A stretch of 64,000 bases of DNA from Mobula hypostoma (lineage: Eukaryota). The position numbers and the translations under genes were made by a program. Location of the stretch: positions 89,592,001 to 89,656,000 of the forward strand of contig NC_086108.1 of NCBI RefSeq assembly GCF_963921235.1, given 5' to 3'. Shown in pieces: positions 480 through 56,958 of the stretch; position 1 is the first letter of the stretch, and every line of letters starts with the position of its first letter. Below the pieces are notes generated by a model, which saw nothing but the letters and a program-made list of their open reading frames with translations, did no database searches and was not told where the DNA came from.

Positions 480-555
480 AGTTCTCTCTCTCTACGAATC
501 GATAGGTCCAACTTAATAGGCTGAAGGCCAGTTTCACCACTGTTTAACTCAAGTG

Positions 556-905
556 TCACATACACAAAATATCAGAGGAGCTCCGCAGGCCAGGAAAAGT
601 GTACAATCGGCATTTCAGGTCGAGACCCTTAGTCAGGACTGGAGAAAAAGAAGATGAAGAGGCAGAGTAAGAGATGGGGGGAGGGAAGGAAGAAACACAA
701 GGTGATAGGAGAAACCGGGAAGTGGGGGTCATTGGGAAGTTGATTGGTGAAAGAGATACAAGACTGGAGAAGGAGGAATCTATAGGAGAGAACAGAAGAC
801 CATGGAAGAAAGGAGGGAGGACCACCAGAGACAGTTGATGGGGAATGGTGAATGGGGGGGGGGGGGTGCATTACCAGAAGTTCATGCCATCAGGTTGGAG
901 GCTAT
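556..905 (-). mobile_element. Penelope-like element 3' terminal-repeat fragment with degenerate hammerhead motif (604-641)
   Basis: Similar to 54464-54940: catgccatcaggttggaggct (end of GIY-YIG), purine-rich tract, gagacccttagtcaggact. Confidence 0.7.
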
Positions 906-6650: not shown

Positions 6651-8174
6651 TCCTATAATATAAGAACAGAAGAGGTAGACCGGACAGTAATATCCTAATT
6701 CCTAAGGTCTAAATCTGACCCTCTGCCATGGGCCGTATTCTGTAACTACTGTCAGGGCTACAGAGAAGATTTGTTTGTGTTGTTGTCCTACATCTTGGGA
6801 GCCTAGATGCAGAAATTCCATCCTGTTAACATTTTTGCCACTGGGGAATAATTACTTAAGTATTGTGAGTACTTGATTATTTTGAAAACTGCACTAAGTG
6901 AAATGCTGTCAATCTTCCAGTTTTTGCTAATATTTCTACTGTGTATTAAACCAGTTCATTCAAATTTAGCAGAAAAGACTGCCACATATTATGATGGGAT
7001 TTGCATTTCTTAAACTAACAAAACTTTTTTTCACAATTGTGAGCTTTCATTAAATGTCAATTTTCTTTTAAAATGCCTCAAACTGATACCAAAGACAGGC
7101 TGCCAGCAAAACTCTGGAGACCAGAAACCAACCATACTAGCAGACTTTCAAATGAAGATTGACTGAGAAGAACTATGCCAAAGGTTATGAAGCCTGCAAA
7201 TGGGAATTGTAGCGATGTGAAATACTCCACAAGGGTACACAATTGTTGGTAGTCACAGTTAACTCTCCCTTCACTGATTATGCCTTCAACTTCTTCCTGG
7301 TTAGGGAATCATTTACCTTTTAAATAACTGAATAGGTGTTCATCAAGCCCATCACTCCAACTGTTATACTTACCCCCATCATCCAGCACTATGCATCTGA
7401 GTCTCCGGGAGGATTTGCCTTGTAGAGTGCCATTAATACTGAAGTATAAAATTTCCTAATGTAACTGCCATCCTCTCACTGTGCAATACTGTTGTTTGAT
7501 GATACATAGAATGTAGGCGCTGATTAGCTGAACTCTGAAAAGTTGCAACACACACAAACTGTTGGAGGAACTCAACAGGCCAGGCAGCATCTATGGAAAA
7601 GAGTATAGTCAACGTTTTGGGCCGAGACCCTTCATTGGGGCATCTGAAAGCTTGCACTTGTTCCTCAATCACACTTAATTTACTTCCACACAGAGATCAA
7701 TATGACCCCTATAACTACAATGTTCTGAAGTCTGAGTGAAGAAATGCAAATTTATACAGAAATTCACCAGCTGTATACAAGTATTGATTCAATAGAAATT
7801 TTCTACACTTCCACCCATCATTTGCTTATTTAAGTACCAATCATAATCCATATTTCAGGTGTTAATCAATTACATCCATGTATTGAAGGCCAATAATACT
7901 TGAGCATTAGTAAAATAACTGTCCAATGGTAAGAGCTGCCCTAGAATCCTCTGCTGGCATCTTTGTTTTGTCTTGGTATGCTCAGTGACCTTGGTTCCCT
8001 GGATTGAATAGAAAGGCTATAAAAGAGTTCAGTTTTCAAGTGCCATGTTCAGCTGGATGATTGCACTATGTCTCTGTCAACATATCATCTGGACTTGTCA
8101 TATTAGTACCTCTAACATGCAGAAAGACTGTACAAAGTGCCTGCTCTTCATTCTGTAGCACATATTTTAACCCG

Positions 8175-8755
8175 TCGAGCACCTCCGCTCTGTCCGCCAA
8201 AACAGACAGGATCTCCCAGTAGCCACCCACTTCAATTCTGCTTCCCACTCCCATTCAGATATGTCCATACATGGCCTCCTCTACTGCCATGATGAGGCTA
8301 AACTCAGTCAGGTTGGAGGAGCAACACCTCATATACCGTCTAGGTAGTCTCCAGCCCCTTGGTATGAACATAGAATTCTCCAGCTTCCGGTAATTCCCTC
8401 CCCGTCCCTTCCCCTATCCCTATTTCACTCTGCCCCCTACCCCAGCTGCCTATCACCTCCCTCATGGTTCTGCCTCCTTCTACTACCCATTGTGTTTTCC
8501 CCTATTCCTTCTTCACCTTTCCTGCCTATCACTTCCCTGCCTCCCTTCCCTCATCCCTTTATCTTTTCCCCTTACTGGTTTTTTTCACCTGGAACCTACC
8601 AGCCTTCTCCTTCCCACCCTCCCCCCACCTTCTTTATAGGGCACCTGCCCCTTCCCCCTACAGTCCTGACAAAGGGTTCCGGCCTGAAACGTCGACTGAT
8701 CTTTTCCACGGATGCCGCCTGACCTGCTGAGTTCCTCCAGCGTGTTGTGAGTGTT
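8175..8755 (+). mobile_element. Penelope-like element 3' fragment (end of GIY-YIG plus terminal repeat)
   Basis: Homologous to 56090-56687 (gagcacctccgctctgtccgcc...caggatctcccagt...ggttggaggagcaacacctcata); ends in hammerhead motif and gctgagttcctccagcgtgttgtg. Confidence 0.85.
8661..8698 (+). ncRNA. Minimal hammerhead ribozyme motif with mutated core (CTGACAA)
   Basis: cagtc CTGACAA agg-gttccgg-cct GAAA c GTC gactg; 5-bp stem I. G8>A should impair catalysis. Confidence 0.6.
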
Positions 8756-29048: not shown

Positions 29049-31309
29049 GTAAGAGTAACATTTAAAGTTCTCCCGGAAGACGCTTGTCATTTTATGAGGT
29101 TGATATTTCTAAATTAAAAATAAGATGAAAGTCTTGGTATTTTGTTTGTTGCATTTCCTGCCCTGCTGTGGAAAAGACAACATTTAGGATGTACAAAAAA
29201 TAATATTTTCACAAATTACTAATACTAAACTGTTAAAAAGTAACAGGAAAAACATCTTCATTATTTGTCTGGCTGCGAGTTACCTAAAAGTAATACCAAC
29301 TATTTCACATATACTGCTGCAATCATTGAAGAGCTAATTTCATATACTGTATCTACATAGGACTATAGTTTTTGAACGGTTTTCTGGTTTGACATAAGGA
29401 CAGGTTGGCTTTCATGAAATACAGATTAGTACAAAGAGCTCTTATTTACTGAGTTCTATGGTTTTTTGCAATGTTCATATTGGCATACTTCAGTTGAAAG
29501 AGAAATAGCAATTGACTGAAGAGACATTATTGAGGAAATAGTTTTTAATGCTTCTCACTGAAGAATGATAACAGATGGGAATCTTAGTGACAGCAATGAT
29601 TCTTGCCAGCTGATAGCGCAAGGTAGCTTACAAATAGGTGAAAGATGTCTTCATGGATTGAATATGAGCCAATTATGCAGTGAAAGCCATTTTATTTTAG
29701 GATTTTGCTATAGTCAATTCCTCGGCCTCTATCAATCCCAGTTTTCTATGCTGTTCATTGCAAAATTACAATAAATAAATAGCCTGCAGCCTTCAGTCTG
29801 AGTATTAAATTAGTGGCAAATTACTTCGAACAATTTGTCTTAAATTTCCTATCCACCACTTAGTGAGCTGTTTCAATGGGAGGCTTTGAGGTCCATGGGC
29901 CAAATGTAGGCAGATGGGATTAGCTCACTAGACAACACAGTCAGTATGGACTGTTTGGGCTGAAGGGCCTTTTTCCATGCTATATGACTCTGGGACTAGC
30001 TCCTTTGATAAAATAACAAAAAAATCAAATAAAAGCATTAAGCATATAAATACTCATATGTTAAAGTGTAATTTGAAAGATTTGCATTTTAAAATCATCT
30101 TAAAAAGTGACTGCACTTTTCTGTATTGTGGATTGGCTTTGTGGAAAATATGCAATTATATTTTTCTCTGTTTAATAAAAAAATTCAAAACTATTCTCTA
30201 TTGCATTTGTCCCTATCCTTTCTCCACAACTACCTAAAATTACTTGGTTATACAATAGAGCTATAACAGTCTTTTAAACTTTAAATGTCTGCTTAGATAT
30301 CAGGAAAGAACAAAGTGATTTGATACAAACAACAGACTTCTGTAAAATATCAGATGGTCAGGTAGCATATGAGGAGAGAAATGGACAGTCAATGTTTTGG
30401 GTCAAGTATCTTAACCTGGACTCCAGATTCTCGAATCTGCAGTCTTTTATGTCTCCAATGTGATCTAATAATTTGAAACAAAACCTTAAAAACAATTTGT
30501 AATGAAAGGCCTGATCAAAAGGTCTAATCAACCCATAAACTGAGTATATAATTAACAATTTTAAGCCATAGCATGTAGGTGGAGAATATTGTTGATATAA
30601 ACAGAAGTGTATGCACATTTGAAGTGAAAACAACTTGCAGTTTCATTAATATACAGTGAAACATTATGTATTTGCTTGATATTGTCAAAAGGAATTTCTT
30701 TCTGAGTTTTCCCACTTCACCAGATGCAGGACTACAGGTAAACTGTACAGTGCAATATGAAAATAAACTTAAAAGTACTCAAAATAATGGTTTAAGTAGC
30801 AAACCAAACAATTTATCTTTTACTGTCAGGTGAACCTGACAGCTAGTAAGTTCATTAATGATTAGTAATATCACTCTTTGCATATTTTTCAATGGTTATT
30901 GAACACTCCGTAATGGATTTTTACAGGCTATCTCCTTGGTTACTGTGTAGGAACTGATGGTCTGCCATGAATATTTCAACTAAATGAAAATAGCATTTGC
31001 TGTCATAGAATTGTACTGTTTGACTCAGCTGGTCTGTGATCTGTGTCAAGCTCTTCAAATTTGAATATTCTTACTCAAATGTGAATATAGAGAATATTGG
31101 TGTAGTTACTTATATCTAGCAAAATTTAACTTCTCTCTTTGTAATTCTTTGTACAGAGGTATTCAATTATAGACTGTTCTTCCATTTATATAAGGCAACG
31201 TCCCCAATTGTACTTTTACCTGACTTCAAACAGTTCCAGTGTCTATATATAGGGGTATTAAATGGATAAGTCATGTCTACCTCCTCCTGAACCTATCACT
31301 ATTACAGAA

Positions 31310-31487
31310 GCCCACCTGGCTTCACCTATGACCTTCTAATTATCCTCCATCCAAACCCCCCACCTTTTTTATTCTGGCATCTTTCCCCTTCCTTTTCAGT
31401 CCTGAAAAAGGGTCTCAGCCCGAAATGTCGACTGTTTATTCGTTTCCATAGATGACTTGCTGTGTTCCTCCAGCATTTTGTGTGCGT
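31310..31487 (+). mobile_element. Penelope-like terminal-repeat fragment with hammerhead motif (31397-31434, core CTGAAAA)
   Basis: cagtc CTGAAAA agggtctcagccc GAAA t GTC gactg, followed by ttcctccagcattttgtgtgc. Confidence 0.7.
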
Positions 31488-31627
31488 TACAATTACAGAA
31501 GCTTGTGTTCAGAGCAATTAGCTTACCCAAGATACCAAGAAATGGCTAAGTGCTGGTACACTCCACAGGTAACAATGATACAATGGTTGTAGGCATCAGT
31601 TTAGCAGTTCTTCCAGTGGTTGTAACA

Positions 31628-32683: not shown

Positions 32684-35600
32684 TCTTTTCTTTCTTTCTT
32701 TTTAAATCTTTTTATTGAATAAGTATACAAAAAGGTAAACCATATAAACATTAATACAATGTTAAAATATAATAAAATTCCAGAAGGTATCAATACCAAA
32801 AAAAAATACTACAAACAATGTAATTTAAACATAAAAAACCAAGATAACATAATAGTATACTAAATTTTATATATATATCAATGGAAAAAAAAGAAAAAAA
32901 AACCCCAAAAAAAACCCACTGTGCAACTAACTAAAAGCAAAGCAAAGCAATGGGCTAACTTGAAACCAAACAGAGTTAAACTTAAAATCACGTCCTCAAT
33001 CCCGCCCTCCATTAAAAACAGTGGAAAAAAAACAAGAAGGGTATATATTACATTAAATGAAAATATCGAATAAAAGGTCCCCAAATCTGTTCAAATTTAA
33101 ATGAAGAATCATAAAGGTTACTTCTAATTTTCTCCAGATTCAAACATAAAATCGTCTGAGAGAACCAAAAAAAGGTAGTTGGAGCATTAAGCTCTTTCCA
33201 ATGTTGTAAAATACATCTTTTCGCCATTAAAGTAAGAAATGCGATCATTCTACGGGCTGAAGGGGAAAGATTACTAGAAATTTTGGGTAGTCCAAAGATA
33301 GCAGTAATAGGGTGAGGAGAGATATCTATATTTAATACCTTAGAAATAATATTAAAAATATCTCTCCAAAAAGTTTCCAAAGTAGGACAAGACCAAAACA
33401 TATGAGTTAAAGAGGCTATCTGCCCCGAACATCTATCACAAAAAGGATTAATATGCGAGTAAAAACGCGCTAACTTATCTTTGGACATATGTGCTCTATG
33501 AACTACTTTAAATTGAATTAGGGAATGTTTAGCACAAATAGAGGAAGTATTAACTAATTGTAAAATCTGCCCCCAATCATCCACAGAAATGGTAAGCCCC
33601 AATTCCTGTTCCCAATCTACCCTAATCTTATCAAATGGAGCTTTCCTACGTTTCATAATAATATTATAAATCATAGCCGATGCACCTTTCTGACATGGAT
33701 TGAGGTTAATTATCGAATCTAAAATATATGTAGGAGGAAGCATTGGAAAGGAAGAAAGTATAGTACTTAGGAAATTTCTAACTTGTAAATATCTAAAAAG
33801 ATGTATTCTTGATAAATTATATTTATTAGATAATTGTTCAAAAGACATAAGGGAACCATCTAAAAATAAATCCAAAAACCGTAAAATACCCTTAGTCTTC
33901 CAGGTTTGAAAAGCGCGATCCGTAAAAGAGGGAGGAAAAAATATGTTACCTAAAATAGGAATCGCTAACCCGAATTGATTAAGATCAAAAAATTTTCTGA
34001 ATTGAAACCAAATGCGCAAAGCATATTTAACTATCGGGTTAAAGACCTGCTTAAGGCGTTTCGAATCAAAAGGAAGAGAGGAACCTAAAATAGAGCCAAG
34101 TGTATAACCCTGAACAGATTGTAGTTCCAATGCTACCCATTTAGGAATAGATAGTATATCCTGATCAAGTAACCAAAATTTCATATGTCGAATATTAATA
34201 GCCCAATAAAAGAATCTAAAGTTAGGTAATGCTAAACCTCCATCTCTCTTAGCTTTCTGTAAATGTATTTCACCCAGTCTCGGATTCTTATTCTGCCAAA
34301 TAAATGAAGAAATTTTAGAGTCAACTTTATCAAAGAAAGATTTTGGAACAAAAATTGGTAATGCCTGAAACACATATAAAAATTTTGGCAAAAAAAACAT
34401 CTTAACTGCATTAATACGACCAATCAAAGTTAAATATAAGGGAAACCATTTAGATGAAAGTTGAGTAATATGGTCTATTAATGGTAAAAAGTTAATCTTA
34501 AATAAATCTTTATATTTACAAGTAATTTTAATCCCAAGATAAGAAAAATAATTATCAATCAATTTAAATGGAAATTTATAATATAAGGGAAGATGTTTAT
34601 TAATCGGAAAGAGTTCACTCTTACTAAGATTTAATTTATAACCTGAAAAAAAAACAAATTGTGCTAATAACTCTAAAACAGCAGGAATGGATTTCTCAGG
34701 ATTAGAAATATATAACAGTAAATCATCAGCATAGAGTGATAATTTATGGGACTTTAATCCCCGAGTTATCCCAGTAATATTTGAAGATTCTCGAATGGCA
34801 ATTGCAAGAGGTTCTAATGCAATATCAAATAATAGGGGACTAAGAGGACAGCCTTGTCGAGTACCTCGAAAAAGAGGAAAAAAAGGTGAGTTTAAAGAGT
34901 TAGTACGGACCGAGGCTGCAGGGGAATGATATAACAGTTTAATCCAGGATATAAATTTCAAGCTAAAATTAAACATTTCAAGCACCTTAAATAAATAGGG
35001 CCATTCTACTCTATCAAAAGCTTTCTCGGCGTCTAAAGAAATAACACACTCAGGAACATTTTGTGAGGGAGTATAAACAATATTTAACAATGTACGAATA
35101 TTATAAAAAGAGTAACGACCTTTAATAAAACCCGTTTGGTCTTCCGAAATAATAGAAGGAAGTACTTTTTCTAGTCTATTTGCTAATAACTTAGAAAAAA
35201 CTTTAGAATCAACATTTAATAAAGATATTGGTCTATAAGATGCACATTGAGCAGGGTCTTTATCCTTCTTTAGTATTAAAGAAATTGACGCTCTATTAAA
35301 AGATTCAGGAAGTTTACCAAGTTTCAGAGAAGCCTCAAAGACCCTACAGAGCCAAGGGATCAATAAAGAAGCAAAACATTTATAAAATTCAACGGTAAAC
35401 CCATCCGGGCCAGGAGCTTTCCCCAGATTCATAGAAAAAATAACATTCTTAATCTCATCCATAGTAATGGAAGTATCTAATATAGAAGACATATCCTGTG
35501 AAATCTTAGGGAAGTCTAACTTATCTAAAAAATCATTCATATATTTAGAATCTCGAGGAGACTCTGATTGATATAAAGAAGAATAAAAATCACAAAAGGT

Positions 35601-36225
35601 TTGATTAATCCCCACATGATCCAGTATCAATCGATCATTTTGGTTATAAATCTGATTGATTTGAGATTTAACATAATTAGATTTCAATTGGTTAGCCAGC
35701 AGCTTGCCAATTTTGTCACTGTGAACATAAAATTCACTTCTTGTTTTCTTTAATTGGTTTACAATCAAGGACGAGAGTAATAAACTGTGTTCCATTTGAA
35801 GTTCAGTTCTTTCTTTGTATAACTCCTCAGAAGGAGCCATAACATATTTCTTATCAATTTCTTTAATCTTGTCCACAATTGCCATCTCCTCCTGCTTCTG
35901 TTTCTTCCTCAAAGCAGCAGAATACGAAATAATCTGACCACGAATATAGGCTTTAAAAGTGTCCCAAAGAGTGTTAACAGAAATATCCTCTGTATGATTA
36001 ATTGTAAAAAAAAGCTCAATCTGTTCATTCATAAAGTTAACAAAGTCCGAATCCTGAAGCAACAGCGAATTAAAACGCCATTGTCTATTATTTTGTATAT
36101 TGGCCATAATTTTAATAGAAAGCTTAAGTGGAGCATGATCCGAAATGGTTATAGAATCATAATCACATTTAATCACTGAAGGAATAAGACGAGAATCAAT
36201 AAAAAAAATAATCAATTCTTGAATA
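32684..36225 (-). mobile_element. L1 (LINE-1) element, 5'-truncated within the endonuclease; young
   Basis: AT-rich; aataaa plus A-rich tail (aataaaaagatttaaaaagaaagaaagaaaaga) at 32684-32717; long open ORF2. Confidence 0.93.
33048..36205 (-). CDS. L1 ORF2 (end of APE endonuclease, RT, C-terminal CCHC knuckle), N-terminally truncated
   Basis: ISDHAPL, KAPGPDGF, YRPISLLNVD, SLDAEKAFDRV, GTRQGCPLSPLLF, LYADD, YLGI, CDRC...HMFWSC; about 1050 codons without a stop. Confidence 0.92.
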
Positions 36226-36889
36226 TGGCCTTTTATATATTGGTGAGACCCGACGCAGACTGGGAGACTGCTTTGCTGAACATCTACGCTCTGTCCGCCA
36301 GAGAAAGCAGGATCTCCCAGTGGCCACACATTTTAATTCCACATCCTATTCCCATTCTGACATGTCTATCCACGGCCTCCTCCACCGTAAAGATGAAGCC
36401 ACACTCAGGTTGGAGGAACAACACCTTATATTCCGTCTGGGTAGCCTCCAACCTGATGGCATGAACATTGACTTCTCTAACTTCCGCTAAGGCCCCACCT
36501 CCCCCTCGTACCCCATCTGTTACTCATTTTTATGCACACATTCTTTCTCTCACTCTCCTTTTTCTCCCTCTGTCCCTCTGAATATACCTCTTGCCCATCC
36601 TCTGGCTCACCCCCCCCCACCTCCTTGTCTTTCTTCCCGGACCTCCTGTCCCATGATCCTCTCGTATCCCCTTTTGCCTATCACCTGTCCAGCTCTTGGC
36701 TCTATCCCTCCCCCTCCTGTCTTCTCCTATCATTTTGCATCTCCCCCTCCCCCTCCAGCTTTCAAATCCCTTACTCACTCTTCCTTCAGTTAGTCCTGAC
36801 GAAGGGTCTCGGCCTGAAACGTCGACTGCGCCTCTTCCTATAGATGCTGCTTGGCCTGCTGCGTTCACCAGCAACTTTGATGTATGTTG
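36225..36889 (+). mobile_element. Penelope-like element 3' fragment (GIY-YIG C-terminal part plus terminal repeat), abutting the L1 5' break
   Basis: Nearly identical to 56040-56689; GLLYIGETRRRLGD motif. Confidence 0.92.
36792..36827 (+). ncRNA. Minimal type I hammerhead ribozyme motif, intact core
   Basis: agtc CTGACGA agg-gtctcgg-cct GAAA c GTC gact: stem I agtc/gact, conserved CUGANGA and GAAA boxes, GUC triplet (predicted cut after 36823), essentially no stem III loop. Confidence 0.8.
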
Positions 36890-38451: not shown

Positions 38452-38598
38452 CTCAGTGTGTAACCTTCCGTCACGTTATCCAACACAACATTTTGCATTG
38501 ATCTATAACTGAAGCATTACATTATCCTCACTTTATCCTCACTTGGCTTCTAGTGCACACAGAAAACAGGAAACCACTTGATCTGATTCAGATACATA

Positions 38599-39135
38599 CA
38601 CTCAATGGCCACTTTTTTAAAACGTGTCTCCTGTACCCAATAAAGTAGCCTCTGAGTGTATGTTCCTGGTTTTTTTCTGTAGCTCAAGGTTCAATCTGTT
38701 GTACATTAAGAGATGATCTTCTGCATACCACTGTTGTAAGGCATGGTAACTTAAGTTACCATCGCCTTCCTGTCAGCTTGAACCAATCTGGCCATTCTCC
38801 TCTGACCTCTCTCATTAACAAGCCATTTCCACCCACAGAACTGCCACTCACTAGACGATTTTTTTTTTTGTTTCTTGCAACATTTTCTGTAAACTGTAGA
38901 GTCTATTGTGTGAGACAATCCCAGGTGATCAGCAGTTTCCGAGATGCTCAAACCACCACATCAGCAACCAACATTCATTCCCCGGTGAAAGTCACTTAGA
39001 TCACATTTCTTCTCCATTCCGACGTTTGGTCTGAACAACAACTGAACCTCTTGACCATCTCTGCAACGTTTAATGTATTGAGTTTCCACCTCATGATTGG
39101 CTGATTAATGTGCAGGTGTTCAGGTGTACTGAGTG
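38599..39135 (-). mobile_element. Non-autonomous Tc1-like element with paired-like HTH remnant
   Basis: TA-flanked ends cactcaatggccacttt / actgagtg; SISETADHLGLSHTIDSTVYR...RGQRRMARLVQADRKAMVT resembles a Tc1 transposase N-terminus; second copy at 51811-52600. Confidence 0.8.
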
Positions 39136-41766: not shown

Positions 41767-42019
41767 GTTAAGACGTAAGTGTTGCCAGTTTCAGGAAGAT
41801 ATAGACTTGTATCGGAAGATCCCTCTGAACATTGTCTTACAACTTACAGTATAATTTCCTGAAGTATTTGGCCTCCCAAACTGCAGTAGCACACATTACT
41901 CTGGATTAAACACCAAATTAATTTCTGAGATAGTAAGTGAATCCAAAAGAACCTCTCACTACCTTTTAAAGGTATTTACAAAAAAAATTATTGTTAAAAT
42001 AAATCCATAGTTTTTTAAA

Positions 42020-42460
42020 GCAACACACAAATTACAGGAGGAGCTCAGCAGAGTCAGGCAGCATCTATGGAAATGAATAAACAGTCGACCTCTCAAGCCG
42101 AGACTCTTCCTCAGGACTGGAAAGGAAATGGGGAGACTCCAGAATAAAAAGGTGGGGGAGGGAGAAAAGGATAGGTATAAGGTGACGAGTGAAGCCAGCG
42201 GGGTGGGAAAGGTAAAGGGATGGAGAGGAAGAAATCTGATAGGAGAGGAGAAAGAGAAGGAGGAGGAGATGGTAGGCAGGTGAGAAGAGGTAAGAGGCCA
42301 AAGTGGGGAATAGAAGAAGAGGGAAGGGGGAGGGAAAACAATTTACTAGAAGGAGAAATCAACGTTTGTACCATCAGCTTGATGTGGCTCATCCACCCTG
42401 AGAGTGGCCACATCATGGAACACGAGGAAGGCCATGGACCAACATGTTGGAGTGGGAATG
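42020..42460 (-). mobile_element. Penelope-like 3' fragment with degenerate hammerhead (42082-42119)
   Basis: Reverse complement cagtc CTGAGGA agagtctcggctt GAGA ggtc gactg; GIY-YIG tail remnant around 42360-42460. Confidence 0.7.
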
Positions 42461-43477
42461 GGAATTTTTTTTGCCTATTATTTGAACCTTCAATAAAATA
42501 ATATTCAACAAATAAGAAAAAATTCAGAGCTAATGACAGTATCATTGTTATTCACAATTTAAGGGGAAGTTTAAAAAGATATTTCATTTAAAGCTAATTT
42601 TCATCTAACAATTGAAACACAGCTAAAGATACCAAAAAATTACCTGAAGCTAATTTAAATCATGTTTTCTGTGGCGATACTTGATTTGAATACCTAATCG
42701 AACATAAATAAACATGATTTGTCATAAACATGAGATCCATACTGTTTATGTCTGTGTAAAACTGTCCTCCTGGCATCTGCATTTTTTTTGAGTTCTTCTG
42801 TTGGCCAATGTTAACATGTTTCCATGGAAGTATAAATTTATTTAATTTTCACTGGCTGCTTCTTTGGAATATGCTGCGGTTAGGTAATGCAGTATTTTGA
42901 TTGAAACTTCAATAAAATTTGGTTTCTTCTGTATTACGTGTGGGATTAATTGTAAAAGTAAAATTTTGACAAAATGTATGGAGTATATAACTCTGCCAAG
43001 TTTGCTGGTCATTCTATACATAATTGCTACATTGAATTTTTAGAATGACATTACAAACAAAATCATATTATAATTACATAGAAATAAGAATAATCACTCA
43101 TGGTAAATAAGAGGGGAGTTTTAAGCAAACTTGTCTGGTTGGGAATCAGCTGGTAGGCAGTTAACATCAGGCAGCTCACCTGCATCGAATCACCTTCCTT
43201 CCAGAGGTGAAAGGAGTTGATTTTTATTGGTTATAATCTCCTGAGCAAGGCATCATTCCAAAAGTATGAGTAGGCATGGGTCAGTATAAGTTGTGTTTGA
43301 AATCTGGTATGCCCTTGTTACGTTCACAGGAGTTAGCCAGGCCAAAGCAGGGCAAAGCCAAGAGCAAGGCTGTGCCAATAGAGGAGTGGCATTCAGGGAG
43401 AGGGTGAATAGGTTTAGGAGAGGCGTCAATGAATGAGTTGTTGAGAAGACAAAGCTAAGCCCACTTGATTATCTAAA

Positions 43478-43595
43478 ACAACACACTCAAAATGCTGGAG
43501 GAATTCAGCGGGCCAGGCAGCATCTATGGAAAAACGTACAGTCAACATTTCAGACTGAGACCCTTCATCAGGACTGGAAAAAAAGATGAGGAGTC
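43478..43595 (-). mobile_element. Penelope-like terminal-repeat fragment with intact-core hammerhead (43539-43576)
   Basis: Reverse complement cagtc CTGATGA agggtctcagtct GAAA t GTT gactg, followed by gatgctgcctggcccgctgaattcctccagcattttg. Confidence 0.75.
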
Positions 43596-45604
43596 ATCTG
43601 ACTGGCTCCACATAAAATAACTTGGGATGGAGATTCATAATCCTTCCTTGTCCCACCTGCACCCTAGCTCCTTTGCGATTTTAAACTCCCAGTGCGATTG
43701 GTTTAGTCGTCCATCTGCTATCACGTGGCTTTAATGTACAGTCTCAGAACTCAGAATCAGGGTTATTAGGACTGACATATGATATGAAATTTGTTGTTTT
43801 CTGCAGCAGTATAGAGCAATACATTAACAATTGCTATAATTTCCAGTAATAAATATATAAAATATAAATGAATATTGCAAAATGAGACCAAAACATAAAA
43901 AAGAGCAAAAGACTGTCATAATTATATGACAATTCCTGTGGAAACTGTTGTGAAATTGACCACAGAATTCAGATGAGACCTGGGATTTAATATTCTCCAG
44001 CCCCAACTTCCAGAGCAGTGGATATGTTGTTGCTCTGAACAATATCTCCCCACTAAGGCTGGTTTAGAGCTGTTTATTAGGCCAGGCAGTGTCTGACGAC
44101 AGAAAGACAGAGGTGATGATTCACATTGATGGTTCTTGATCAGAACTGGGAACAATCAAGGAAAAGGAATGGTTTGTGTTCCAGAGGAATGGTGGAGGGG
44201 ATCAAAGGGTAAGTTTGTGGGAAAGACAAATTAGAGCAGGTGAAATGTAGTGTTGTGTTTGTTTAATGAAGAGTCTCAGCCTGAAATGTTGACTGTTTAT
44301 TTCAATCCATGAATACTGCCTGACCTGCTGAACTCCTCTAGCACTTGGTGTGTGTTGCTCTCGATTTTCAGCATCTGCAGAATCTCCTGTGTTTATGTGC
44401 TGTGTTGGAGCTAGCTGAAGGTGGGCGGTGAGGAGAATGAGCAACAAAAAAAGGTGTATCTGGGGGAGGTGCAAGTAGGCAGAGATGAATGAAAGCCACA
44501 AGGAGAAGGGAAAAAGTGAGAATGCTGGAGATGTGAGAAAAAAGGGTGGATTGGCTGAAGAGCATTGTTGAGTCTGGAAGTAATAACGTGCTCCATCAGG
44601 CAGAGGTGTAAAATCCTGCAGACTCTGCAGGAAGAACAGGGACATTCCCCCAATGTACATGCCAATATTTATACCACAGCTAACACCTGCAACAGATAAC
44701 CTGGTAACTTATTTCATTGCTTTCTGTGTGTCTTTCCTGTGTGTAATTTTAAAAAAGAATCTGCTCTTGTATTACCTATAGAAAAGGGAGCTTGTGCCCA
44801 TTGAGCCTGCCGAACTGTGGAAATGGCTTAAAGGATAAGGCTGTAAATCAGCAGTGGCAGATCTCAATAAAAGTGCATTTTAGTGTGGTAGAATGGTTCT
44901 AATGAGAAGCATGCACATCAGGATAAAGGAAGTTTAGCATAGTGTCAAATTGAAAGTTGAGCATATTGAAGGAAAGAATTGAGACCAATATCTGAAATGT
45001 TATCACTTACTCTTTCCACAAATTTGCATCACCTATTGAGCATTTCAAGATTTCCAGCACTATCTCTTTTTATTTTGGTCAATGGAATGGCAAAGGGCAT
45101 AGACATTAAAAACAGGGAAAGCTTAGCTAAATTTTAAGAGATGCAAGTGCAGTGTTGAGCATAGTTTATGTGTTTGTGTTTAAAGGTTGCATCTGTATTA
45201 AAGGCTGTCACTAGATTAACTGCTGGGGTAAAGCAATTAATTTACAAAGAAAATGAGCAAGTTGGACCTACATGCTTTGAAGATGGTTAAGAGGTGATCT
45301 TACTGAAAAATAGCATATCGTAGATGGAATTAACAAAACTCATGTAGAGAATTTGTTTCCCTTGAATGAAAAGCTGTACTTTTGTGATAAATGGTCAACC
45401 ATTAAGATGGAGATGGGGAGGAATTTCTCGAGGATCATGAATTTTCAGAATTCTCTTCCCCAGGGAGTTGTGAAGGAAGAGTCAGTGAAGCTATCCAAAG
45501 AGGAGAATAACACCTGTTTAATCTACTAGGAAGCACAGGATTGTTGGGGAGTGAGTGGAAAAGTGGGGTTGAGGCCAAGACTGGATCAGTCTCGTTCTCC
45601 CCTT

Positions 45605-46405: not shown

Positions 46406-48761
46406 TGCTCTAGAATCAGAATCAGGTTTATTATCACTGTATGTCATGAAATTTGTTGCAGCAGGACCTCCAGCACCCAGGGCATGCCCTTTTCTCACTG
46501 TTACTACCAGGATGAGGTACAGAAGCCTAAAGGCACACACTCGGTGATTCAGGAACAGCTACTTCCTCACTGCCATCCAATTCCTAAATGGACATTGAAT
46601 CTTTGGACACTACCTCACTTTTTCTTAATATGCAGTATTTCTGTTTTTGCATGTTTTTAATCTATTCAATATACGTAATTGATTTAGTTGCTTATTATTG
46701 TTATTTTTCTCTCTGCTAGGTTATGTATTGTATAAAACTGCTGCTGCTAAGTTAACAAATTTCAAGTCACATATCAGTGATAATAAACCTGATTCTGATT
46801 CTGAGCAATGGAGTGCAAGACATAACATAAAAATACTATTAAGTTACAATAAGAACTATATACTGTAGTGCAAACGAGGTAGTGCTCATGAATTCGTGGA
46901 CTCATGGACCATTCAGAAATCTAATGGTGGAGGTGAAAAATCTGTTTCTGAAACACCAAGTGTGTGTCTTTATGCTCCTGTACCACCTCTTTGATGGTAG
47001 TATTGAGAAGAGGGTATGTCCCAGATGGTAAACGTCCTTAATGATATATGCTTCCATTTTGAGGCACCACCTCTTGACGATTTCCGTGTTGGTGGGGAGG
47101 CTTAAGCTATGATGACACTTGCTGAGCCTACATTTCTGCATCCCCGTAGGATCCTGCATATTAGAACCTCTGTATTGGATGGTGATTTACCCAGTCCACC
47201 ATCTTCCTTCATCTTTTTCTACTAGCTATCTCACCTTTTTCTTTGTAGTCCTGATGAAGGATCCCAGCCCAAATTGACAGTGGTCCACTTTACCCAACAG
47301 ATGCTGCTTGATTGATTAATTCCTCCAGCTCATTTGTATGTTGCCTCAATCTTGTTCTTGAATGGCAGGAGTGGGCCGTAGGGCTGACAGTCCCATTCTG
47401 GGTGCTGGTTTTTATATCCTTGTGCTCTTATTCAATAAAATCATGGCTCAGAATCAAAAACAAAATCCAAAAATACTGGGAGTGTTCAGTAGACCAGGCT
47501 GCACCTGTGCGAAGAGAGACATTCAAATCTTCATGTTGGAGACCCTTCATCAGAACTAAAAAGGAAATAAAAGACACTTCTAAAGCTGCAGGGAAAGTTG
47601 GGATCGGAGTGTCCCTGATAAAGTGAAACCGGAGTGGCCATGGGGAAAAGCATGGTTATCTGTTCAGTGAGTGGGTGGGAGCAGTTAAAGGGTGAGAATA
47701 TAGGTAAGAAGATTGTGGAAGTTGTCAAAATGCAGAGCAGGAGAACATGACTAGCAGGTCCTTAACCACCAGAGAAATTTGACCTTAAAGCTACATCCCT
47801 ACTAAATTTTTACCCCACGACTTTACACGTGTGTTTAAACCTTGATTATATTCAAAGTCTCCTCTTCAGAACCCTTGATTTGAAAATTCAAAAAAGTCAA
47901 GACCTCTGAGAGGAACAATTACTGATCTCTATTTTTCCCTCTGAAATGGTGCCCATTGGTTTATAGATGTCCCACAAAGAGAAACATCCTCTAAGCATCC
48001 ACCGTCAATCCCCTCAGAATCTCATGTTTCCTAAAAAAAAACATCACTTTTTATTTTCCACAGTGACCACAGAATAGGACCAGCTCAGTTTTCCGCATTA
48101 GATATCCCTTTAATCCTAGGACTCAAACCCTGTGAGATTTCTCTGCACTTCCTCTAATGCATCTATTTCCTTCTTTATTTAAAGATACTATGTGGTATTC
48201 TAGGTGCAGCCTTACCAGCACACTGTCCTACTTTTCTGTTTCATTCCCCTTTCCACTTCATTCCATTTCCACTAATATTCTTCATGCCAAAGTAAATAAT
48301 TTCTCACTTCCCCACATTGTACTCAATCTGACAAATTTTCGCCAACTCACATAACCTATCTATATTGGAAGTAACTTAAGGAGAGAGGGAACAAAATCAG
48401 GAAATTGGGAGAAGTGAATCAATATTTGATCAAGGATAAGCAATCACTAAATTCCCTGGACCATGGAATGAAAAACTACTTCACATTTCACTGTTCAGCA
48501 TACCCTCCCAAGATGGAACACACTATAAATACTTTAACTGTAACCAAGTACTAATTTGATCCTTAATTCCCAGACAATATCTTTCAATAAGATGTTTGCT
48601 AGTAACAGGTAAACACACAGTTGCTTGATACGATTTCAAGTGGAGAATGAGACTCACCCTAGTTTTCTGGGCAACATTTATCCTTCAAATAACACCACTA
48701 GTTCATGCCATCCCTTTGGATGAGACCAGGCTTAGGACCTTTCAATAGTAAGTGTATGTGC

Positions 48762-49066: not shown

Positions 49067-49089
49067 AAAGTGTACAGAAGAATTTCCCT

Positions 49090-49321
49090 CAACATACATA
49101 AAAGTTGATGCTGAGCGCAGAAGGCCAGGCAGCATCTATAGGAAGAGGTACAGTCGATATTTCGGGCCGAGACCCTTCGTCAGGACTAACACCGAAGGGT
49201 CTTGACCCGAAACGTCGACTGTACCTCTTCCTATAGATGCTGCCTGGCCTGCTGTGCTCACCAGCAACTTTTATGTGTGTTGCTCGAAATTCCAGCATCT
49301 TCAGATTTCCTCGTGTTTGCG
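49090..49321. mobile_element. Fold-back mini Penelope-like insertion with 14-bp TSD
   Basis: Inverted arms 49090-49179 and 49193-49282, tail 49283-49321; TSD AGAAGAATTTCCCT at 49076-49089 and 49322-49335; complete hammerhead on the minus strand at 49152-49187. Confidence 0.9.
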
Positions 49322-49825
49322 AGAAGAATTTCCCTATTCCATTCCAGTCATGCCTCCTTCTAAAACTTGTAATTCTTGTGTTTCACACAAGCTTCTGTCA
49401 TTGATAATTAATTGAGGCAGAACAAGTATTATTGTGAACAAAAGATTGCATTTCTTTGAAAACAATAGTTGCAGCTCTTTCGTTCTATATCTTAAGTGAA
49501 AAATGCTTGGCTGATCAATTTGCAATGTGACCATGAGAATGGGTCAAGAAAGAAAAGTCAATTTGCCTTGCTGTTCAACAAATAACTATACCAAGTGTCA
49601 GCTAAAGTGTTCTCTAGCTCATCAAAACTTCAGGTACTGTTCTTTACAGGTCCCAGAAGCCCATGCTCATCCCCATTGACCCTAAGTATCGCTCTCTAAC
49701 CAACTGTTTCTATTTCAATGTGATACAGATGGAGAGTGAATATCTATAAACTGCAGATGTTGAATGTCTGAAATAAAAACAGAAAAGTTTGGAAATGTTT
49801 GGTAGGGTAGAAGAGCGAGAGTAGG

Positions 49826-50205
49826 ACCTATCAAAACCTATCAAATATTGAAAGGACAGAAAAGAGTGGCCATGGAGAAGACATTTCCTATTGTGGAGAA
49901 TCATAAGACCGGATGGCACAACCTCAGAATACAAGAACATCCCTTTAAAACAGAGATAAGGAGGAATTCTTATTAGCCAGATGGTGGTGAATCTGTGCAA
50001 TTCATTGCCATGGCTGACTGTGAAGGCCAACTCATGGGGTATATTTAAAGCAAGGGTTGATGGGTTCCTGATTAGTCAGATTACCAAAATTTATGGGAAG
50101 AAGGTTGAAGAATGGGGTTGACGGAGATAATAAATCAGCCATGATAGAATGGTTGAGGAGACTTGATGGACTGAGTGGCCTAATTCTGCTCCTATGTCTT
50201 ATGGT
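49826..50205 (+). mobile_element. CR1 3' end fragment
   Basis: Similar to 22130-22503 and 58430-58790; tail ctcctatgtcttatggtc. Confidence 0.7.
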
Positions 50206-50566
50206 CAGGTAGCATATGTAGAGGGAGAGAGAGAATGAGAACGTTTCAAGTTGGAGATACTTCACCAGAACTGTATTGACAAAGGGTGTTTGACTTGAAA
50301 TTTTAACTCTACTTCTTTTCCCACAGATAATGTCTGACTTGTCAAATATCTCCAGCAGTTTCTGTTTTTATTGTCTGGTTGAAGCTTGACTAGGATTGAG
50401 TGGTTGGAATGCAGACAGGATCAGAGCAGTTGTGTGAATGGAATAAGGGTCATTGTGAAAATGTAGCATTGCTAGGGCTGGATTTAGTGGGGCTGGGGCC
50501 CCTGGGCTGGAGAGAAAATATTTGTGGGAAGCAGGAATATGTCAAGGAGTGAGATCAGAAGACTAA

Positions 50567-52600: not shown

Positions 52601-54560
52601 TATGTTTTTCAAAAATAAACATTAAACAACATTTTTAAGTATAATTTTTAGTTTACACTTATATGCTGAATCATAGAGATGTCAAGGATAAAAGTGTTCA
52701 ACTTGCTTTAAGTATCATAAAAATTAAACTGATGTGTAGTTAAGTACAATCTTCTGAGATATTTACAGTCTGTATTAACGGCATCATGTCATGATGAGAG
52801 TAGTAATTAATTTTTAGGGGTTAAGATATAGAGCTTTAAAGGCAAATGCTGGAAGGTTTTATGAAAACAGAAGTTGCTCAAAATAGTCACCAGGTAAGCA
52901 GCGTCCATGGAGAAAGAAATAGAGTTAATGCTCAGTCTCCAACATTGTTCTAGTGAAGCCTAACATAAGTTAAAGGGGCAGCCTCATTGATCTTTTACTA
53001 GAACTGAAAAAAAAGTTTTAAGATGCAAAGACAAAGGAGAGGAGAGGGTAAAACAAAGGGGAGGTCTATGAAATGCTGGAAGGAAGGAGATAGAATAATA
53101 TAAGGGATGATACTTAACATAAAATAAAAATGGAATGTATAAAAAAACGAATCTAGGGGATTTGTGATACTACTAGACAAAGCTTTACCTGAGACTTTTC
53201 AATTCAGTGTTGTCGGAAAGGATGTGAATTGCCTTATAGAAAATTAAGATAGTTCTCTTTGAAATTGCATTGGGCTTCATTAGACTTGACCTGCTAAGAG
53301 TCAGTGTGTTGTTGGTGATAAACGGATGAACCAGTTGCGAAAGGGTTATATTTCATAGTGGGATTTAATTAGAGAAAGCAGACATGGAAATATGAAATAG
53401 ATTCATAAGGTACAAATGGTGCAAATGTATGGCTTGAAGACCTCCAATAAGATGGCGATGTAGTTGGTTGCAGTGGCCTCTTCTGGTTGAAGAAATGGTG
53501 CAAATGTGTGCCTTAGATGTTTTTTTTTCCGAACAAAAGATCCTGTGAGACATTGGTAATATAAATATAAAATACTACAAGTCCAGGACATTGGTTCCCT
53601 GGTCAGACCGATGGCAGGGGAACTGCGTGGGCTTGGTTGTTGCATGGTTCTGGCCCTCATGCCGTGGCATCACCTATTACAGCCACCCAGGGAAGGCAGT
53701 ACTGGAGGCAGTGTGGATGTGCAGGAATCCATGCTGGGTTGGGGTCTGGCCCCTGAAGTTTGGGTTTCCCATCAGTGTTCGCTTCCTGGAAGACCAGCTG
53801 TATTGTCTTCATCTGTGACTGATTCAGCACTAGACAAGCTGCTTTGCCTTTATCTGTGGCTGACGCAGCATGAGATGAGGAACTGCTGCGTGCTTGTTCT
53901 TGTAGAACCATGGCTATAAGGCAACATCCCATGCACCATCAATCTTCAGGTCATGCCATTCAGGGACCCCATAACTGAAATTCCAAAATCTGAAAACCTA
54001 TAAAATCTGAACATTTCTGAGCACTGACAAATGGAAAATTCCACAAGGCATTGGGGATATTCTCAAGCAATACACAGATCTCTGCACACCACATACAGTT
54101 AAGAGAAGTGCTCACATATGCAATAAACATAAGTTAATGAAAAATAGAAGAACAGTGTATAAACCAAAAAATGAAGATTTTGATCGTGTATTGAAAGAGT
54201 GGATTTGTCAACATTGAAGTGAACACATTTCACTTAACGGTATGCTGATCTTGCAACAAGAAATGATCTATCACAATGAACTGAAAATGGAAGGTATTTG
54301 TGAATATTCAGCAAGCTGGTTCCAGGAAGTTAAGAAAAGGCACAGCATTAAAATTTTAAAGGTTTGTGCTGATGAAGCATCTGCTGATCACGAAGCAGCA
54401 GAGAAATTCATTGATGAGTCTGCCGAGATCATTGCGGGTGAAACATGCTGAATGGCTGCCTCAAACAACAGGAATTCTGCAGATGCTGGAAATTCAAGCA
54501 ACACACATCAAAGTTGCTGGTGAACGCAGCAGGCCAGGCAGCATCTATAGGAAGAGGCGC

Positions 54561-54596: not shown

Positions 54597-56596
54597 AACA
54601 GAAGGAAGAGTGAGTAAGGGATTTGAAAGCTGGAGGGGGAGGGGGAGATGCAAAATGATAGGAGAAGACAGGAGGGGGAGGGATGGAGCCGAGAGCTGGA
54701 CAGGTGATAGGCAGAAGGGGATACGAGAGGATCATGGGACAGGAGGTCCGGGAAGAAAGACGGGGGGGGGTGACCCAGAGGATGGGCAAGAGGTATATTC
54801 AGAGGGACAGAGGGAGAAAAAGGAGAAGTGAGAGAAAGAATGTGTGCATAAAAAAGAGTAACAGATGGGGTACGAGGGGGAGGTGGGGCCTAGCGGAAGT
54901 TAGAGAAGTCAATGTTCATGCCATCAGGTTGGAGGCTACCCATACGGAATATAAGGTGCTGTTCCTCCAACCTGAGTGTGGCTTCATCTCTACAGTAGAG
55001 GAGGCCGTGGATAGACATGTCAGAATGGGAATGGGATGTGGAATTAAAATGTGTGGCCACTGGGAGATCCTGCTTTCTCCGGCGGACAGAGCGTAGATGT
55101 TCAGCAAAGCGGTCTCCCAGTCTGCGTCGGGTCTCACCAATATATAAAAGGCCACATCGGGAGCACCGGACGCAGTATATCACCCCAGTCGACTCACAGG
55201 TGAAGTGATGCCTCACCTGGAAGGACTATTTGGGGCCCTGAATGGTGGTAAGGGAGGAAGTGTAAGGGCATGTGTAGCACTTGTTCCGCTTACACGGATA
55301 AGTGCCAGGAGGGAGATCAGTGGGGAGGGATGGGGGGGACGAATGGACAAGGGAGTTGTGTAGGGAGCGATCCCTGCGGAATGCAGAGAGAGGGGTGGAG
55401 GGAAAGATATGCTTAGTGGTGGGATCCCGTTGGAGGTGGCGGAAGTTACGGAGAATAATATGTTGGACCCGGAGGCTGGTGGGGTGGTAGGTGAGGACCA
55501 GGGGAACCCTATTCCTAGTGGGGTGGTGGGAGGATGGAGTGAGAGCAGATGTACGTGAAATGGGGGAGATGCGTTTAAGAGCAGAGTTGATAGTGGAGGA
55601 AGGGAAGCCCCTTTCTTTAAAAAATGAAGACATCTCCCTCGTCCTAGAATGAAAAGCCTCATCCTGAGAGCAGATGCGGCGGAGACGGAGGAATTGCGAG
55701 AAGGGGATGGCGTTTTTGCAAGAGACAGGGTGAGAAGAGGAATAGTCCAGATAGCTGTGAGAGTCAGTAGGCTTATAGTAGTATATCTTTCCCTCCCCCC
55801 CTCTCTCTGCATTCCGCAGGGATCGCTCCCTACACAACTCCCTTGTCCATTCGTCCCCCCCATCCCTCCCCACTGATCTCCCTCCTGGCACTTATCCGTG
55901 TAAGCGGAACAAGTGCTACACATGCCCTTACACTTCCTCCCTTACCACCATTCAGGGCCCCAAACAGTCCTTCCAGGTGAGGCATCACTTCACCTGTGAG
56001 TCGACTGGGGTGATATACTGCGTCCGGTGCTCCCGATGTGGCCTTTTATATATTGGTGAGACCCGACGCAGACTGGGAGACCGCTTTGCTGAACATCTAC
56101 GCTCTGTCCGCCAGAGAAAGCAGGATCTCCCAGTGGCCACACATTTTAATTCCACATCCCATTCCCATTCTGACATGTCTATCCACGGCCTCCTCTACTG
56201 TAGAGATGAGGCCACACTCAGGTTGGAGGAACAGCACCTTATATTCCGTATGGGTAGCCTCCAACCTGATGGCATGAACATTGACTTCTCTAACTTCCGC
56301 TAGGCCCCACCTCCCCCTCGTACCCCATCTGTTACTCTTTTTTATGCACACATTCTTTCTCTCACTCTCCTTTTTCTCCCTCTGTCCCTCTGAATATACC
56401 TCTTGCCCATCCTCTGGATCACCCCCCCACCGTCTTTCTTCCCGGACCTCCTGTCCCATGATCCTCTCGTATCCCCTTCTGCCTATCACCTGTCCAGCTC
56501 TCGGCTCCATCCCTCCCCCTCCTGTCTTCTCCTATCATTTTGCATCTCCCCCTCCCCCTCCAGCTTTCAAATCCCTTACTCACTCTTCCTTCTGTT

Positions 56597-56632
56597 AGTC
56601 CTGACGAAGGGTCTCGGCCTGAAACCTCGACT
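56597..56632 (+). ncRNA. Minimal hammerhead ribozyme motif (CUC triplet)
   Basis: agtc CTGACGA agggtctcggcct GAAA c CTC gact. Confidence 0.72.
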
Positions 56633-56735
56633 GCGCCTCTTCCTATAGATGCTGCCTGGCCTGCTGCGTTCACCAGCAACTTTGATGTGAATGGCTGCCT
56701 CAGCGGATATGTGTGATGAGAATGTGTAAGACAAG

Positions 56736-56958
56736 TAGCACACACACAAAATGCTGGAGGAACTCAGCAGGTCAGGCAGCATCTATGGAAAAGAGTAAAC
56801 AGTCAACGTTTTGGGCCATGAGTCCTGAAGAAGGGTCTTGGCTTGAAATGTCAACTGTTTACTTTTTTCCATACATGCTGCTTGGCCCACTGAGTTACTC
56901 CAGCATTTTGCGTGTGCTACTTGGATTTCCATCTTCTGCAGATTTTCTATTCCAAGTT
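56736..56958. mobile_element. Older fold-back mini Penelope-like insertion with 9-bp TSD
   Basis: Inverted arms about 56737-56815 and 56845-56919, tail to 56958; TSD TAAGACAAG at 56727-56735 and 56959-56967; hammerhead agtc CTGAAGA...GAAA t GTC aact at 56821-56856. Confidence 0.8.

What the first reader, a model, noticed from the sequence alone, without database searches (positions are those of the whole stretch)
36792..36827. Family of minimal hammerhead ribozymes carried by the Penelope-like terminal repeat (about 10 copies in 64 kb)
Seen: a recurring 36-38 nt motif (c)agtc-CTGANGA-agg(g)tctcggcc(t/c)-GAAA-N-NTH-gact(g). Copies lie at 604-641(-), 8661-8698(+), 31397-31434(+), 36792-36827(+), 42082-42119(-), 43539-43576(-), 49152-49187(-), 54561-54596(-), 56597-56632(+) and 56821-56856(+), with further partial copies near 7610, 44265, 47247 and 47540. 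The order stem I, CUGANGA, stem II, GAAA, NUH, stem I' is the type I hammerhead architecture, but stem III is reduced to a short self-complementary tract (AAACGUC). Established: Penelope-like elements carry such minimal hammerheads, which are thought to cleave efficiently only as dimers. Inference: this genome is seeded with potential self-cleaving RNA motifs at very high density; the 36792 copy has a perfect core and GUC triplet.
Basis: partly seen in the sequence, partly recalled or inferred. Interest (0 to 1): 0.8.

Follow-up and report, generated by a model that had tools for sequence, protein, structure and literature searches.

The report
Ray Penelope copies carrying minimal hammerheads
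The repeated motif is real and has the layout of the tiny self-cutting RNA already described in Penelope-type jumping genes, but here it sits in broken end-pieces of such an element in what is likely a ray genome, only 2 of 20 copies still match the full pattern, and the scattered copies are likely inactive.

Summary
All ten copies lie where stated. They are 5'-truncated 3' ends of a Neptune-type Penelope-like element (GIY-YIG endonuclease with CX4CxxC linker; best homologues are ray proteins, 92% and 82%). The motif fits the published minimal type I hammerhead consensus (Cervera and de la Pena 2014): CUGANGA, an extra A, 4-bp stem II, GAAA, loopless ACGU palindrome, predicted cut after 36823. 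Similarity between subfamilies peaks on the motif (85% against 52% and 58% in flanks), so source elements likely conserved it. The 'genome seeded with ribozymes' inference is weak. Of 20 copies only 36792 and 49152 pass a full descriptor. They lie on opposite strands, 36792 has G.U at 10.1-11.1, and both are predicted to misfold in context. No copy starts at the cut site; ends lie about 60-70 or 101-106 nt past it, as for the uncut templates shown for the anole element. No cleavage was tested. No paper on shark or ray examples was found, but the kind is known, and this scan has noted this family many times in this and other genomes. New member of a known kind; low interest.

The parts
36792..36828 (+). 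Minimal type I hammerhead motif: stem I 36791/2-36795 with 36824-36827/8; C3-A9 36796-36802; extra A 36803; stem II 36804-36807 with 36812-36815 (G.U at 10.1-11.1), loop CUCG; G12-A15.1 36816-36819; palindrome ACGU 36819-36822; C17 36823 (predicted cut after it)
   Evidence: consensus in PMC4209133 Fig. S3
36225..36889 (+). 5'-truncated Penelope-like copy that holds the motif: endonuclease C-terminus to stop near 36489, pyrimidine-rich pLTR, hammerhead, 66-nt tail; no target-site duplication found
   Evidence: about 96% identical to the 54-56 kb arms; read loose end at 36889
36769..36793 (+). Branch-point-like CUCAC, polypyrimidine tract and AG at the 5' edge of stem I; resembles a 3' splice site (inferred, not tested)
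   Evidence: sequence; parallel with D. virilis intron end at helix I (PMC4209133)
54464..55779 (-). Left arm of a head-to-head insertion: RT thumb, CX4CxxC linker, GIY-YIG with one in-frame stop, pLTR, hammerhead 54561-54596 (GAAAC-CUC, palindrome broken), 101-nt tail
55780..56687 (+). Right arm: linker and GIY-YIG (55782-56303), pLTR, hammerhead 56597-56632 (same broken palindrome), 59-nt tail
   Evidence: Pfam GIY-YIG E=1.1e-4; homologues; 98.8% identical to left arm
54449..54463 (.). 15-bp target-site duplication, repeated at 56688-56702
49090..49321 (.). Short head-to-head insertion: hammerhead 49152-49187(-) complete (GAAAU-AUC, G10.1-C11.1), tail 66 nt; second arm starts at N7 (49193+), tail 105 nt; 14-bp duplication at 49076-49089 and 49322-49335
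56736..56958 (.). Older head-to-head insertion: hammerhead 56821-56856(+) and a partial one on the - strand; tails 106 and 69 nt; 9-bp duplication
8174..8754 (+). Older-subfamily copy with endonuclease remnant and hammerhead 8661-8698 (G8 changed to A); 11-bp duplication
31312..31491 (+). Short copy with hammerhead 31397-31434 (G8 changed to A); 11-bp duplication
42015..42463 (-). Decayed copy with hammerhead 42082-42119 (GAGA for GAAA)
43476..43593 (-). Short copy with hammerhead 43539-43576 (12 core bases kept, wobble-rich stems, U.G at 15.2-16.2)
542..904 (-). Decayed copy with hammerhead 604-641 (G8 and U16.1 changed)
7543..7635 (-). Stub that begins inside the core (about 23-25 nt before the cut)
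44266..44394 (+). Stub that begins inside the core, long tail
47245..47560 (.). Two decayed copies, 47245-47355(+) and 47469-47560(-)
50203..50364 (.). Old head-to-head pair of stubs (one arm only E=0.33)
30327..30424 (-).

Best explanation
These motifs are minimal type I hammerhead sequences in the terminal repeat of a Penelope-like retrotransposon, likely of the Neptune clade and likely in a ray; the motif is likely kept by selection in the source elements, where it would cut RNA only as a dimer or with the element's own protein, while the scattered copies are passengers that are likely inactive. Steps: (1) shown: the motif follows the GIY-YIG frame and its pyrimidine-rich repeat in every long copy. 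(2) Inferred from copy ends and PMC11167929: the element's protein starts reverse transcription about 60-70 or about 101-106 nt downstream of the cut site on uncut RNA and copies back through the motif, so almost every insertion, however short, carries it. (3) Shown: copying usually stopped early, often 13-51 nt before the cut, and both target ends were sometimes filled, giving head-to-head pairs with one long and one short tail inside a 9-15-bp duplication. (4) Shown: after insertion the motif decays, fastest at its five CpGs. (5) Inferred from PMC4209133: two motifs would pair through ACGU/ACGU and exchange stem I strands to cut after C17; this is untested for this family.
For: Motif matches the published consensus CUGANGAH-G..C-GAAAN-palindrome-NUH. 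Endonuclease: Pfam GIY-YIG, CX4CxxC linker, two Cys inside the GIY-YIG (definition in PMC8557442); 18 homologues, best Mobula 92%, Hypanus 82%. Cross-subfamily identity over 15 pairs: 52% upstream, 85% motif, 58% downstream. Among 68,472 (X1) and 5,590 (X9) contigs laid, listed variants of 3% or more inside the motif fall only on CpG positions and the 11.1 U/C site, and top loose ends fall at 36792/3 and 36827/8, the two edges of stem I. Three of three duplication-flanked head-to-head pairs have one short and one long tail (66/105, 59/101, 69/106); contig ends pile at +102/+103 in 4 of 4 runs and at +66. 0 of 20 scorable arms begin at the cut. CpG columns differ at 39/129 cells, non-CpG core at 7/117.
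Against: No cleavage data for this family. No significant covariation among the 10 window copies (score 0.230, 93 of 500 shuffles as high); the UA palindrome of 49152 can be double CpG decay. No Rfam hit. Folding gives no support: z-scores not significant, active dimer -11.5 kcal/mol against -30.3 for the best dimer fold, though the model ignores core contacts. The identity comparison uses non-independent pairs chosen by the motif, and the upstream flank is low-complexity. No full-length element and no genome were available, so the source element was not seen. Clade rests on motifs, no tree; Nematis shares the linker.
Confidence: 0.85

Rival explanations
1. The motif is conserved mainly as overlapping signals (3' splice acceptor, start of the reading frame, protein-binding or folding site) and no longer cuts RNA in this lineage.
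For: An AG after a polypyrimidine tract forms the first two bases of stem I in all subfamilies; CUGAUGA holds an AUG, which is the start codon in the anole element (PMC11167929); copies never start at the cut; both arms at 54-56 kb carry a palindrome-breaking change that is rare in relatives (family base in 78-95% of depth), so such an RNA may still have been mobilised; the main young subfamily has G.U at 10.1-11.1 (79% U in X1).
Against: The young subfamily reads CUGACGA, which removes the AUG but keeps the ribozyme core; all 12 invariant core bases and three stems are kept; G.U at 10.1-11.1 occurs in several published element hammerheads; the anole motif cuts and is rescued by C3G/G8C.
Confidence: 0.1
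2. The dispersed copies form a dense set of working ribozymes that cut host or element transcripts, in cis or as mixed dimers in trans.
For: About one motif or tail per 3 kb and 2 descriptor-complete motifs in 64 kb; family sequence is in contigs of runs guessed to be RNA; the dimer model allows one copy to cut another.
Against: 18 of 20 copies fail; core and stems decay alike (p=0.51); the two complete copies are on opposite strands; stem I and II probabilities are 0.0 with 30-nt flanks, and 49152 lies in a fold-back of -130.9 kcal/mol; published monomers show no cleavage and dimers little; no RNA-seq ends at the cut in anole. The RNA label of those runs is a guess and contigs cannot show ends.
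Confidence: 0.04
3. The short copies are a separate non-autonomous element (retrozyme or SINE-like) with its own fixed ends.
For: 11 of 20 arms are stubs of about 90-150 nt that start near the motif; animal retrozymes derive from Penelope repeats and were reported in one chondrichthyan (bioRxiv 2026.07.22.740005).
Against: No head-to-tail tandem units among the 23 hits; 5' ends vary from 13 to over 1200 nt before the cut; stubs belong to the same subfamilies as endonuclease-bearing copies; junctions of head-to-head pairs differ.
Confidence: 0.05
4. The resemblance to a hammerhead is chance.
For: Short motif; bare core pattern not above chance; no Rfam hit; no covariation.
Against: Descriptor 2 hits against 0 in 200 shuffles; position in the repeat as in other Penelope-like elements; extra base after A9 and palindrome at 15.2-16.2 as published.
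Confidence: 0.01

Closest known systems
Minimal hammerheads (min-HHR) in pLTRs of metazoan Penelope-like elements (Cervera and de la Pena 2014, PMC4209133; main text parts 1-2 of 4 and supplement parts 1-2 of 3 read)
   Same: Type I order, CUGANGA plus one extra base, short stems, no loop III, palindromic 15.2-16.2, mostly solo copies from truncated elements. Nearest listed motifs in layout: Acropora digitifera Neptune and Xenopus tropicalis (2), both CUGACGAA and C-G-U.
   Different: No shark or ray is in its Table S1 or Fig. S3. The young subfamily here has G.U at 10.1-11.1 (also seen in a few listed motifs). Density in this window looks higher than the about 4,000-9,000 per genome given for coelacanth and Xenopus, but rests on 2 complete motifs in one selected window.
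Neptune-clade endonuclease-positive Penelope-like elements (Craig et al. 2021, PMC8557442; Arkhipova et al. 2013, PMC3846280; passages read)
   Same: C-terminal GIY-YIG, CX2-5CxxC linker, CCHH-type residues, heavy 5' truncation, head-to-head inverted repeats, 30-40-bp tail on one arm, target-site duplications.
   Different: Only 3' pieces are in the window; RT core, tandem pLTR-ORF-pLTR and clade placement by tree were not seen. Duplications here are 9-15 bp.
PAc, Poseidon element of Anolis carolinensis (Frangieh et al. 2024, PMC11167929; parts 1-2 of 4 read)
   Same: Hammerhead at the pLTR/ORF junction; two reverse-transcription start sites downstream that define the tail; uncut RNA is the template.
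   Different: PAc is Penelope/Poseidon clade (no linker finger) and was tested biochemically; nothing was tested here.
Animal non-LTR retrozymes (bioRxiv 10.64898/2026.07.22.740005; part 1 of 5 and passages read)
   Same: Type I hammerheads derived from Penelope repeats; reported in one chondrichthyan.
   Different: Defined as tandem repeats with a hammerhead in each unit; none here.

Membership tests
Minimal type I hammerhead of PLEs | Invariant core C3 U4 G5 A6 G8 A9 G12 A13 A14 A15.1 U16.1 H17 | tested here: met
   12 of 12 in 36792 and in 6 of 20 copies
Minimal type I hammerhead of PLEs | Stem I open, stem II closed, one extra base between 9 and 10.1 | tested here: met
   (94.9% of cells paired, 12-41% when slid)
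Minimal type I hammerhead of PLEs | Palindromic 15.2-16.2 with no or tiny loop III | tested here: met
   ACGU in 36792; family majority in relatives; lost in 14 of 20 copies
Minimal type I hammerhead of PLEs | G10.1-C11.1 pair (highly conserved, not invariant) | tested here: inconclusive
   G.U in 36792 and in 79% of X1 depth, G-C in 49152 and 21%; G.U also in several published motifs
Minimal type I hammerhead of PLEs | Compensatory covariation in stems | tested here: inconclusive
   not above shuffles in 9 distinct copies; too few and too close
Minimal type I hammerhead of PLEs | Site-specific cleavage after H17 as dimer or with protein | not testable with these tools
   raw-read runs X21 and X22 laid 0 reads; the other runs are contigs
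Endonuclease-positive PLE, Neptune type | C-terminal GIY-YIG endonuclease with internal cysteines | tested here: met
   Pfam PF01541 22.8 bits, cut-off 22.6; sequence
Endonuclease-positive PLE, Neptune type | CX2-5CxxC linker between RT and EN | tested here: met
   CKRNKCYTC; shared with Nematis
Endonuclease-positive PLE, Neptune type | Telomerase-like RT in the same frame | tested here: inconclusive
   only the thumb region is in the window; longer homologues P0009 and P0011 carry PF00078
Endonuclease-positive PLE, Neptune type | Inverted pLTRs, one-sided 30-40-bp tail, target-site duplication | tested here: met
   3 pairs with tails differing by 37-42 nt; duplications of 9 bp or more in 5 of 13 junction tests
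Endonuclease-positive PLE, Neptune type | Placement in the Neptune clade by RT phylogeny | not tested
   no RT core in the window, no reference set at hand
Non-LTR retrozyme | Tandem units each with a complete hammerhead | tested here: not met
   no head-to-tail units among 23 hits
Canonical hammerhead (Rfam models) | Match to an Rfam hammerhead covariance model | tested here: not met
   none at E<=1

The most novel reading that the evidence does not exclude
The front edge of the ribozyme, not its cut site, is the working landmark of this element: the copied RNA is uncut and either begins at the splice-acceptor-like AG that opens stem I or stalls the polymerase at the folded motif, and both ends of one target break are filled from the same RNA. 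This would explain why 11 of 20 arms start 13-51 nt before the cut and none at it, and why both arms at 54-56 kb share a rare palindrome-breaking base. The huge copy number in rays would then be a natural record of Penelope transposition steps that are still unvalidated.
Probability: 0.25. Interest if true: 0.5.

Novelty: new member of a known kind. Interest (0 to 1): 0.18.

Why it matters
Little as a ribozyme discovery: minimal hammerheads in Penelope repeats are described from cnidarians to reptiles, and sharks and rays are at most a gap in that list. The value is as material. What these ribozymes do in the transposition cycle is open (PMC8557442 even allows that they parasitise the elements), and a very high-copy family with sharp ends lets one ask where copying starts and stops relative to the cut. 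In this window the ends agree with the anole in vitro result that uncut RNA is the template.

Tried and rejected
No whole genome is held, so no genome-wide counts or subfamily consensuses. Rfam: 6 weak hits, all hairpin microRNA models below gathering score, none a hammerhead. Tail-anchored pattern scans for unbiased relatives: 1 viral and 32 metagenome loci; 0 of 33 carry the motif upstream, all read as chance matches. Raw-read runs X21 and X22 laid 0 reads, so no test of read ends; runs labelled RNA are a guess and contigs. Loose-end tables were cut (429 and 637 rows not shown; 28 variant rows not shown), so 'no pile of ends at the cut' from reads is weak; the window count (0 of 20 arms; the 1349 arm dropped for an unreliable alignment) is the evidence used. 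Covariation not significant. No duplication found for the 36792 copy alone or together with the adjoining LINE. One search was translated in the wrong frame and redone. Literature: 'Penelope + shark + hammerhead ribozyme' 1 paper, where shark refers to the shape; 'hammerhead ribozyme + cartilaginous fish' 1 unrelated paper (listing only); 'Penelope + elasmobranch + transposable elements + genome' 4 papers (listing only). Lunse et al. 2016 (PMC5785218) was not seen except as a cited title and a review sentence; it, the closed bioRxiv supplements, and Repbase/Dfam may already hold shark or ray examples. PMC544870 passages did not give the cost of G.U at 10.1-11.1; that it lowers the rate is recalled, not checked.

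Full report
Observation. A profile built from the ten (motif plus 90 nt) gives 23 hits at E<=1 and 20 at E<1e-3, against one hit at E=0.27 in the reversed window. The bare core pattern is not above chance (3 matches, 14 of 100 shuffles reach 3), but a full descriptor (core, stem II of 3 bp or more, palindrome, UH, stem I of 3 bp or more, G.U allowed) finds two sites, 36796(+) and 49183(-), and none in 200 shuffles. Rfam has no hammerhead match at E<=1.

Anatomy of the motif. At 36792: AGUC, CUGACGA, an extra A, GGGU-CUCG-GCCU, GAAA, C-G, U, C, then GACU. This is the consensus of Cervera and de la Pena (CUGANGAH, G..C, GAAAN, palindrome, NUH). Stem III is only ACGU with no loop, so it can pair only with a second copy. 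Of 20 copies, 6 keep all 12 core bases and 2 also keep the palindrome and stems. The second, 49152, reads AUAU with G-C at 10.1-11.1; its U-A may be double CpG decay rather than compensation.

What carries it. Upstream of the motif in long copies lie a pyrimidine-rich repeat and the end of a reading frame. [quoted passage not shown] Its 18 homologues are led by Mobula hypostoma (92%) and Hypanus sabinus (82%), then whale and zebra shark (66%, 63%); two unnamed ones extend into an RT domain. The window is therefore likely from a ray. No copy is full length. The 36792 copy spans about 36225-36889 and is about 96% identical to the pair at 54-56 kb. That pair is one insertion: two 5'-truncated arms head to head inside a 15-bp duplication. 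Shorter pairs lie at 49090-49321 (14 bp) and 56736-56958 (9 bp). Duplications of 9 bp or more were found in 5 of 13 junction tests. Inverted arms, a one-sided tail and duplications are the known form of these insertions (PMC8557442, PMC3846280).

Conservation. Across my three by-eye subfamilies (15 pairs, not independent, copies chosen by the motif) identity is 52% in the 36 nt upstream, 85% in the motif and 58% in the 36 nt downstream. In 68,472 and 5,590 contigs of two runs of one organism, the listed variants of 3% or more inside the motif fall only on CpG positions and 11.1, and the top loose ends fall on the two edges of stem I, with flanks of other subfamilies beyond (80% likeness cut-off, some differences uncounted). 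Four runs of three other coded organisms show the same motif with the palindrome intact as majority. It is not passed by individual copies: non-CpG core 7/117 changed, stems 16/182 (p=0.51), CpG columns 39/129, tail 90/619 (core against tail p=0.011, but the tail count includes subfamily differences). Covariation among the ten is not above shuffles.

Ends. Tails past the cut are 66 and 105, 59 and 101, 69 and 106 nt in the three pairs, and 61, 62 and 66 nt in single copies. Contig ends pile at +102/+103 in 4 of 4 runs and at +66. In the anole element such tails are the two sites where reverse transcription starts, uncut RNA is the main template, ribozyme mutants insert normally, and the ribozyme cuts only with the protein present (PMC11167929). 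Here too every insertion runs across the cut site: of 20 scorable arms, 7 extend 98 nt or more upstream, 2 about 75-85 nt, 11 stop within 13-51 nt of the cut, and none starts at it (one arm dropped; the profile favours copies that hold the motif, though tail-only pieces of 38 nt were detected). Both arms at 54-56 kb share a C at 16.2 and a second base that are rare in relatives, so they came from one source or were homogenised afterwards; if the former, an RNA with a broken palindrome was still copied.

Activity. Nothing was measured. The active dimer scores -11.5 kcal/mol against -30.3 for the best dimer; the model omits core contacts, so this is no disproof. The two complete copies are on opposite strands, and 49152 sits in a long fold-back. 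Published monomers did not cleave and dimers cleaved little.

Verdict. The architecture and its carrier are right and of a known kind; I found no paper showing it in sharks or rays, but Lunse et al. 2016, the bioRxiv supplements and repeat libraries were not seen. The density reflects where copying starts, just downstream of the motif, not selection on the copies. Earlier notes of this scan describe the same family in this genome (1692 notes fit the look-up) and in at least 23 genomes, including the pile-up of 5' ends at the motif's edge; they are leads, not independent support. Interest 0.18.

Noticed in passing
window 32700-36225 (-): A 5'-truncated L1-like LINE (RVT_1 E=1.1e-38, zf-RVT; open frame of about 1050 codons, frameshift in a T run near its 5' end) abuts the 5' end of the 36792 Penelope copy head to head. 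No shared target-site duplication was found, so a joint insertion is unproven.
   Followed up: partly
window 36769-36793 and equivalent sites in other copies: Polypyrimidine tract plus AG at the 5' edge of stem I in all subfamilies looks like a 3' splice site, as in D. virilis Penelope where the intron ends at helix I.
   Followed up: no
protein P0008 (zebra shark), C-terminus: Read-through into the repeat gives SLMKGLRPKRQL against VLTKGLGLKRRL here, a hint that the core is kept in sharks while stem I and loop II differ; back-translation is ambiguous.
   Followed up: no
window 24642-24836, 38594-38663, 51806-51872, 57787-57889: Long palindromes that give weak Rfam microRNA hits below gathering score; probably small inverted-repeat transposons.
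   Followed up: no
window 14900-23100 and 57300-61700: Several nested, broken CR1/L2-type LINE pieces (RT, endonuclease and esterase-like frames) on both strands; family name recalled from motifs, not searched.
   Followed up: no
window 62277-63111 (+): Broken frames resembling the N-terminal part of another non-LTR retrotransposon protein.
   Followed up: no
window 45597-46090 (+): Older Penelope endonuclease remnant (about 69% identical to the young arm) with no hammerhead hit directly downstream.
   Followed up: no
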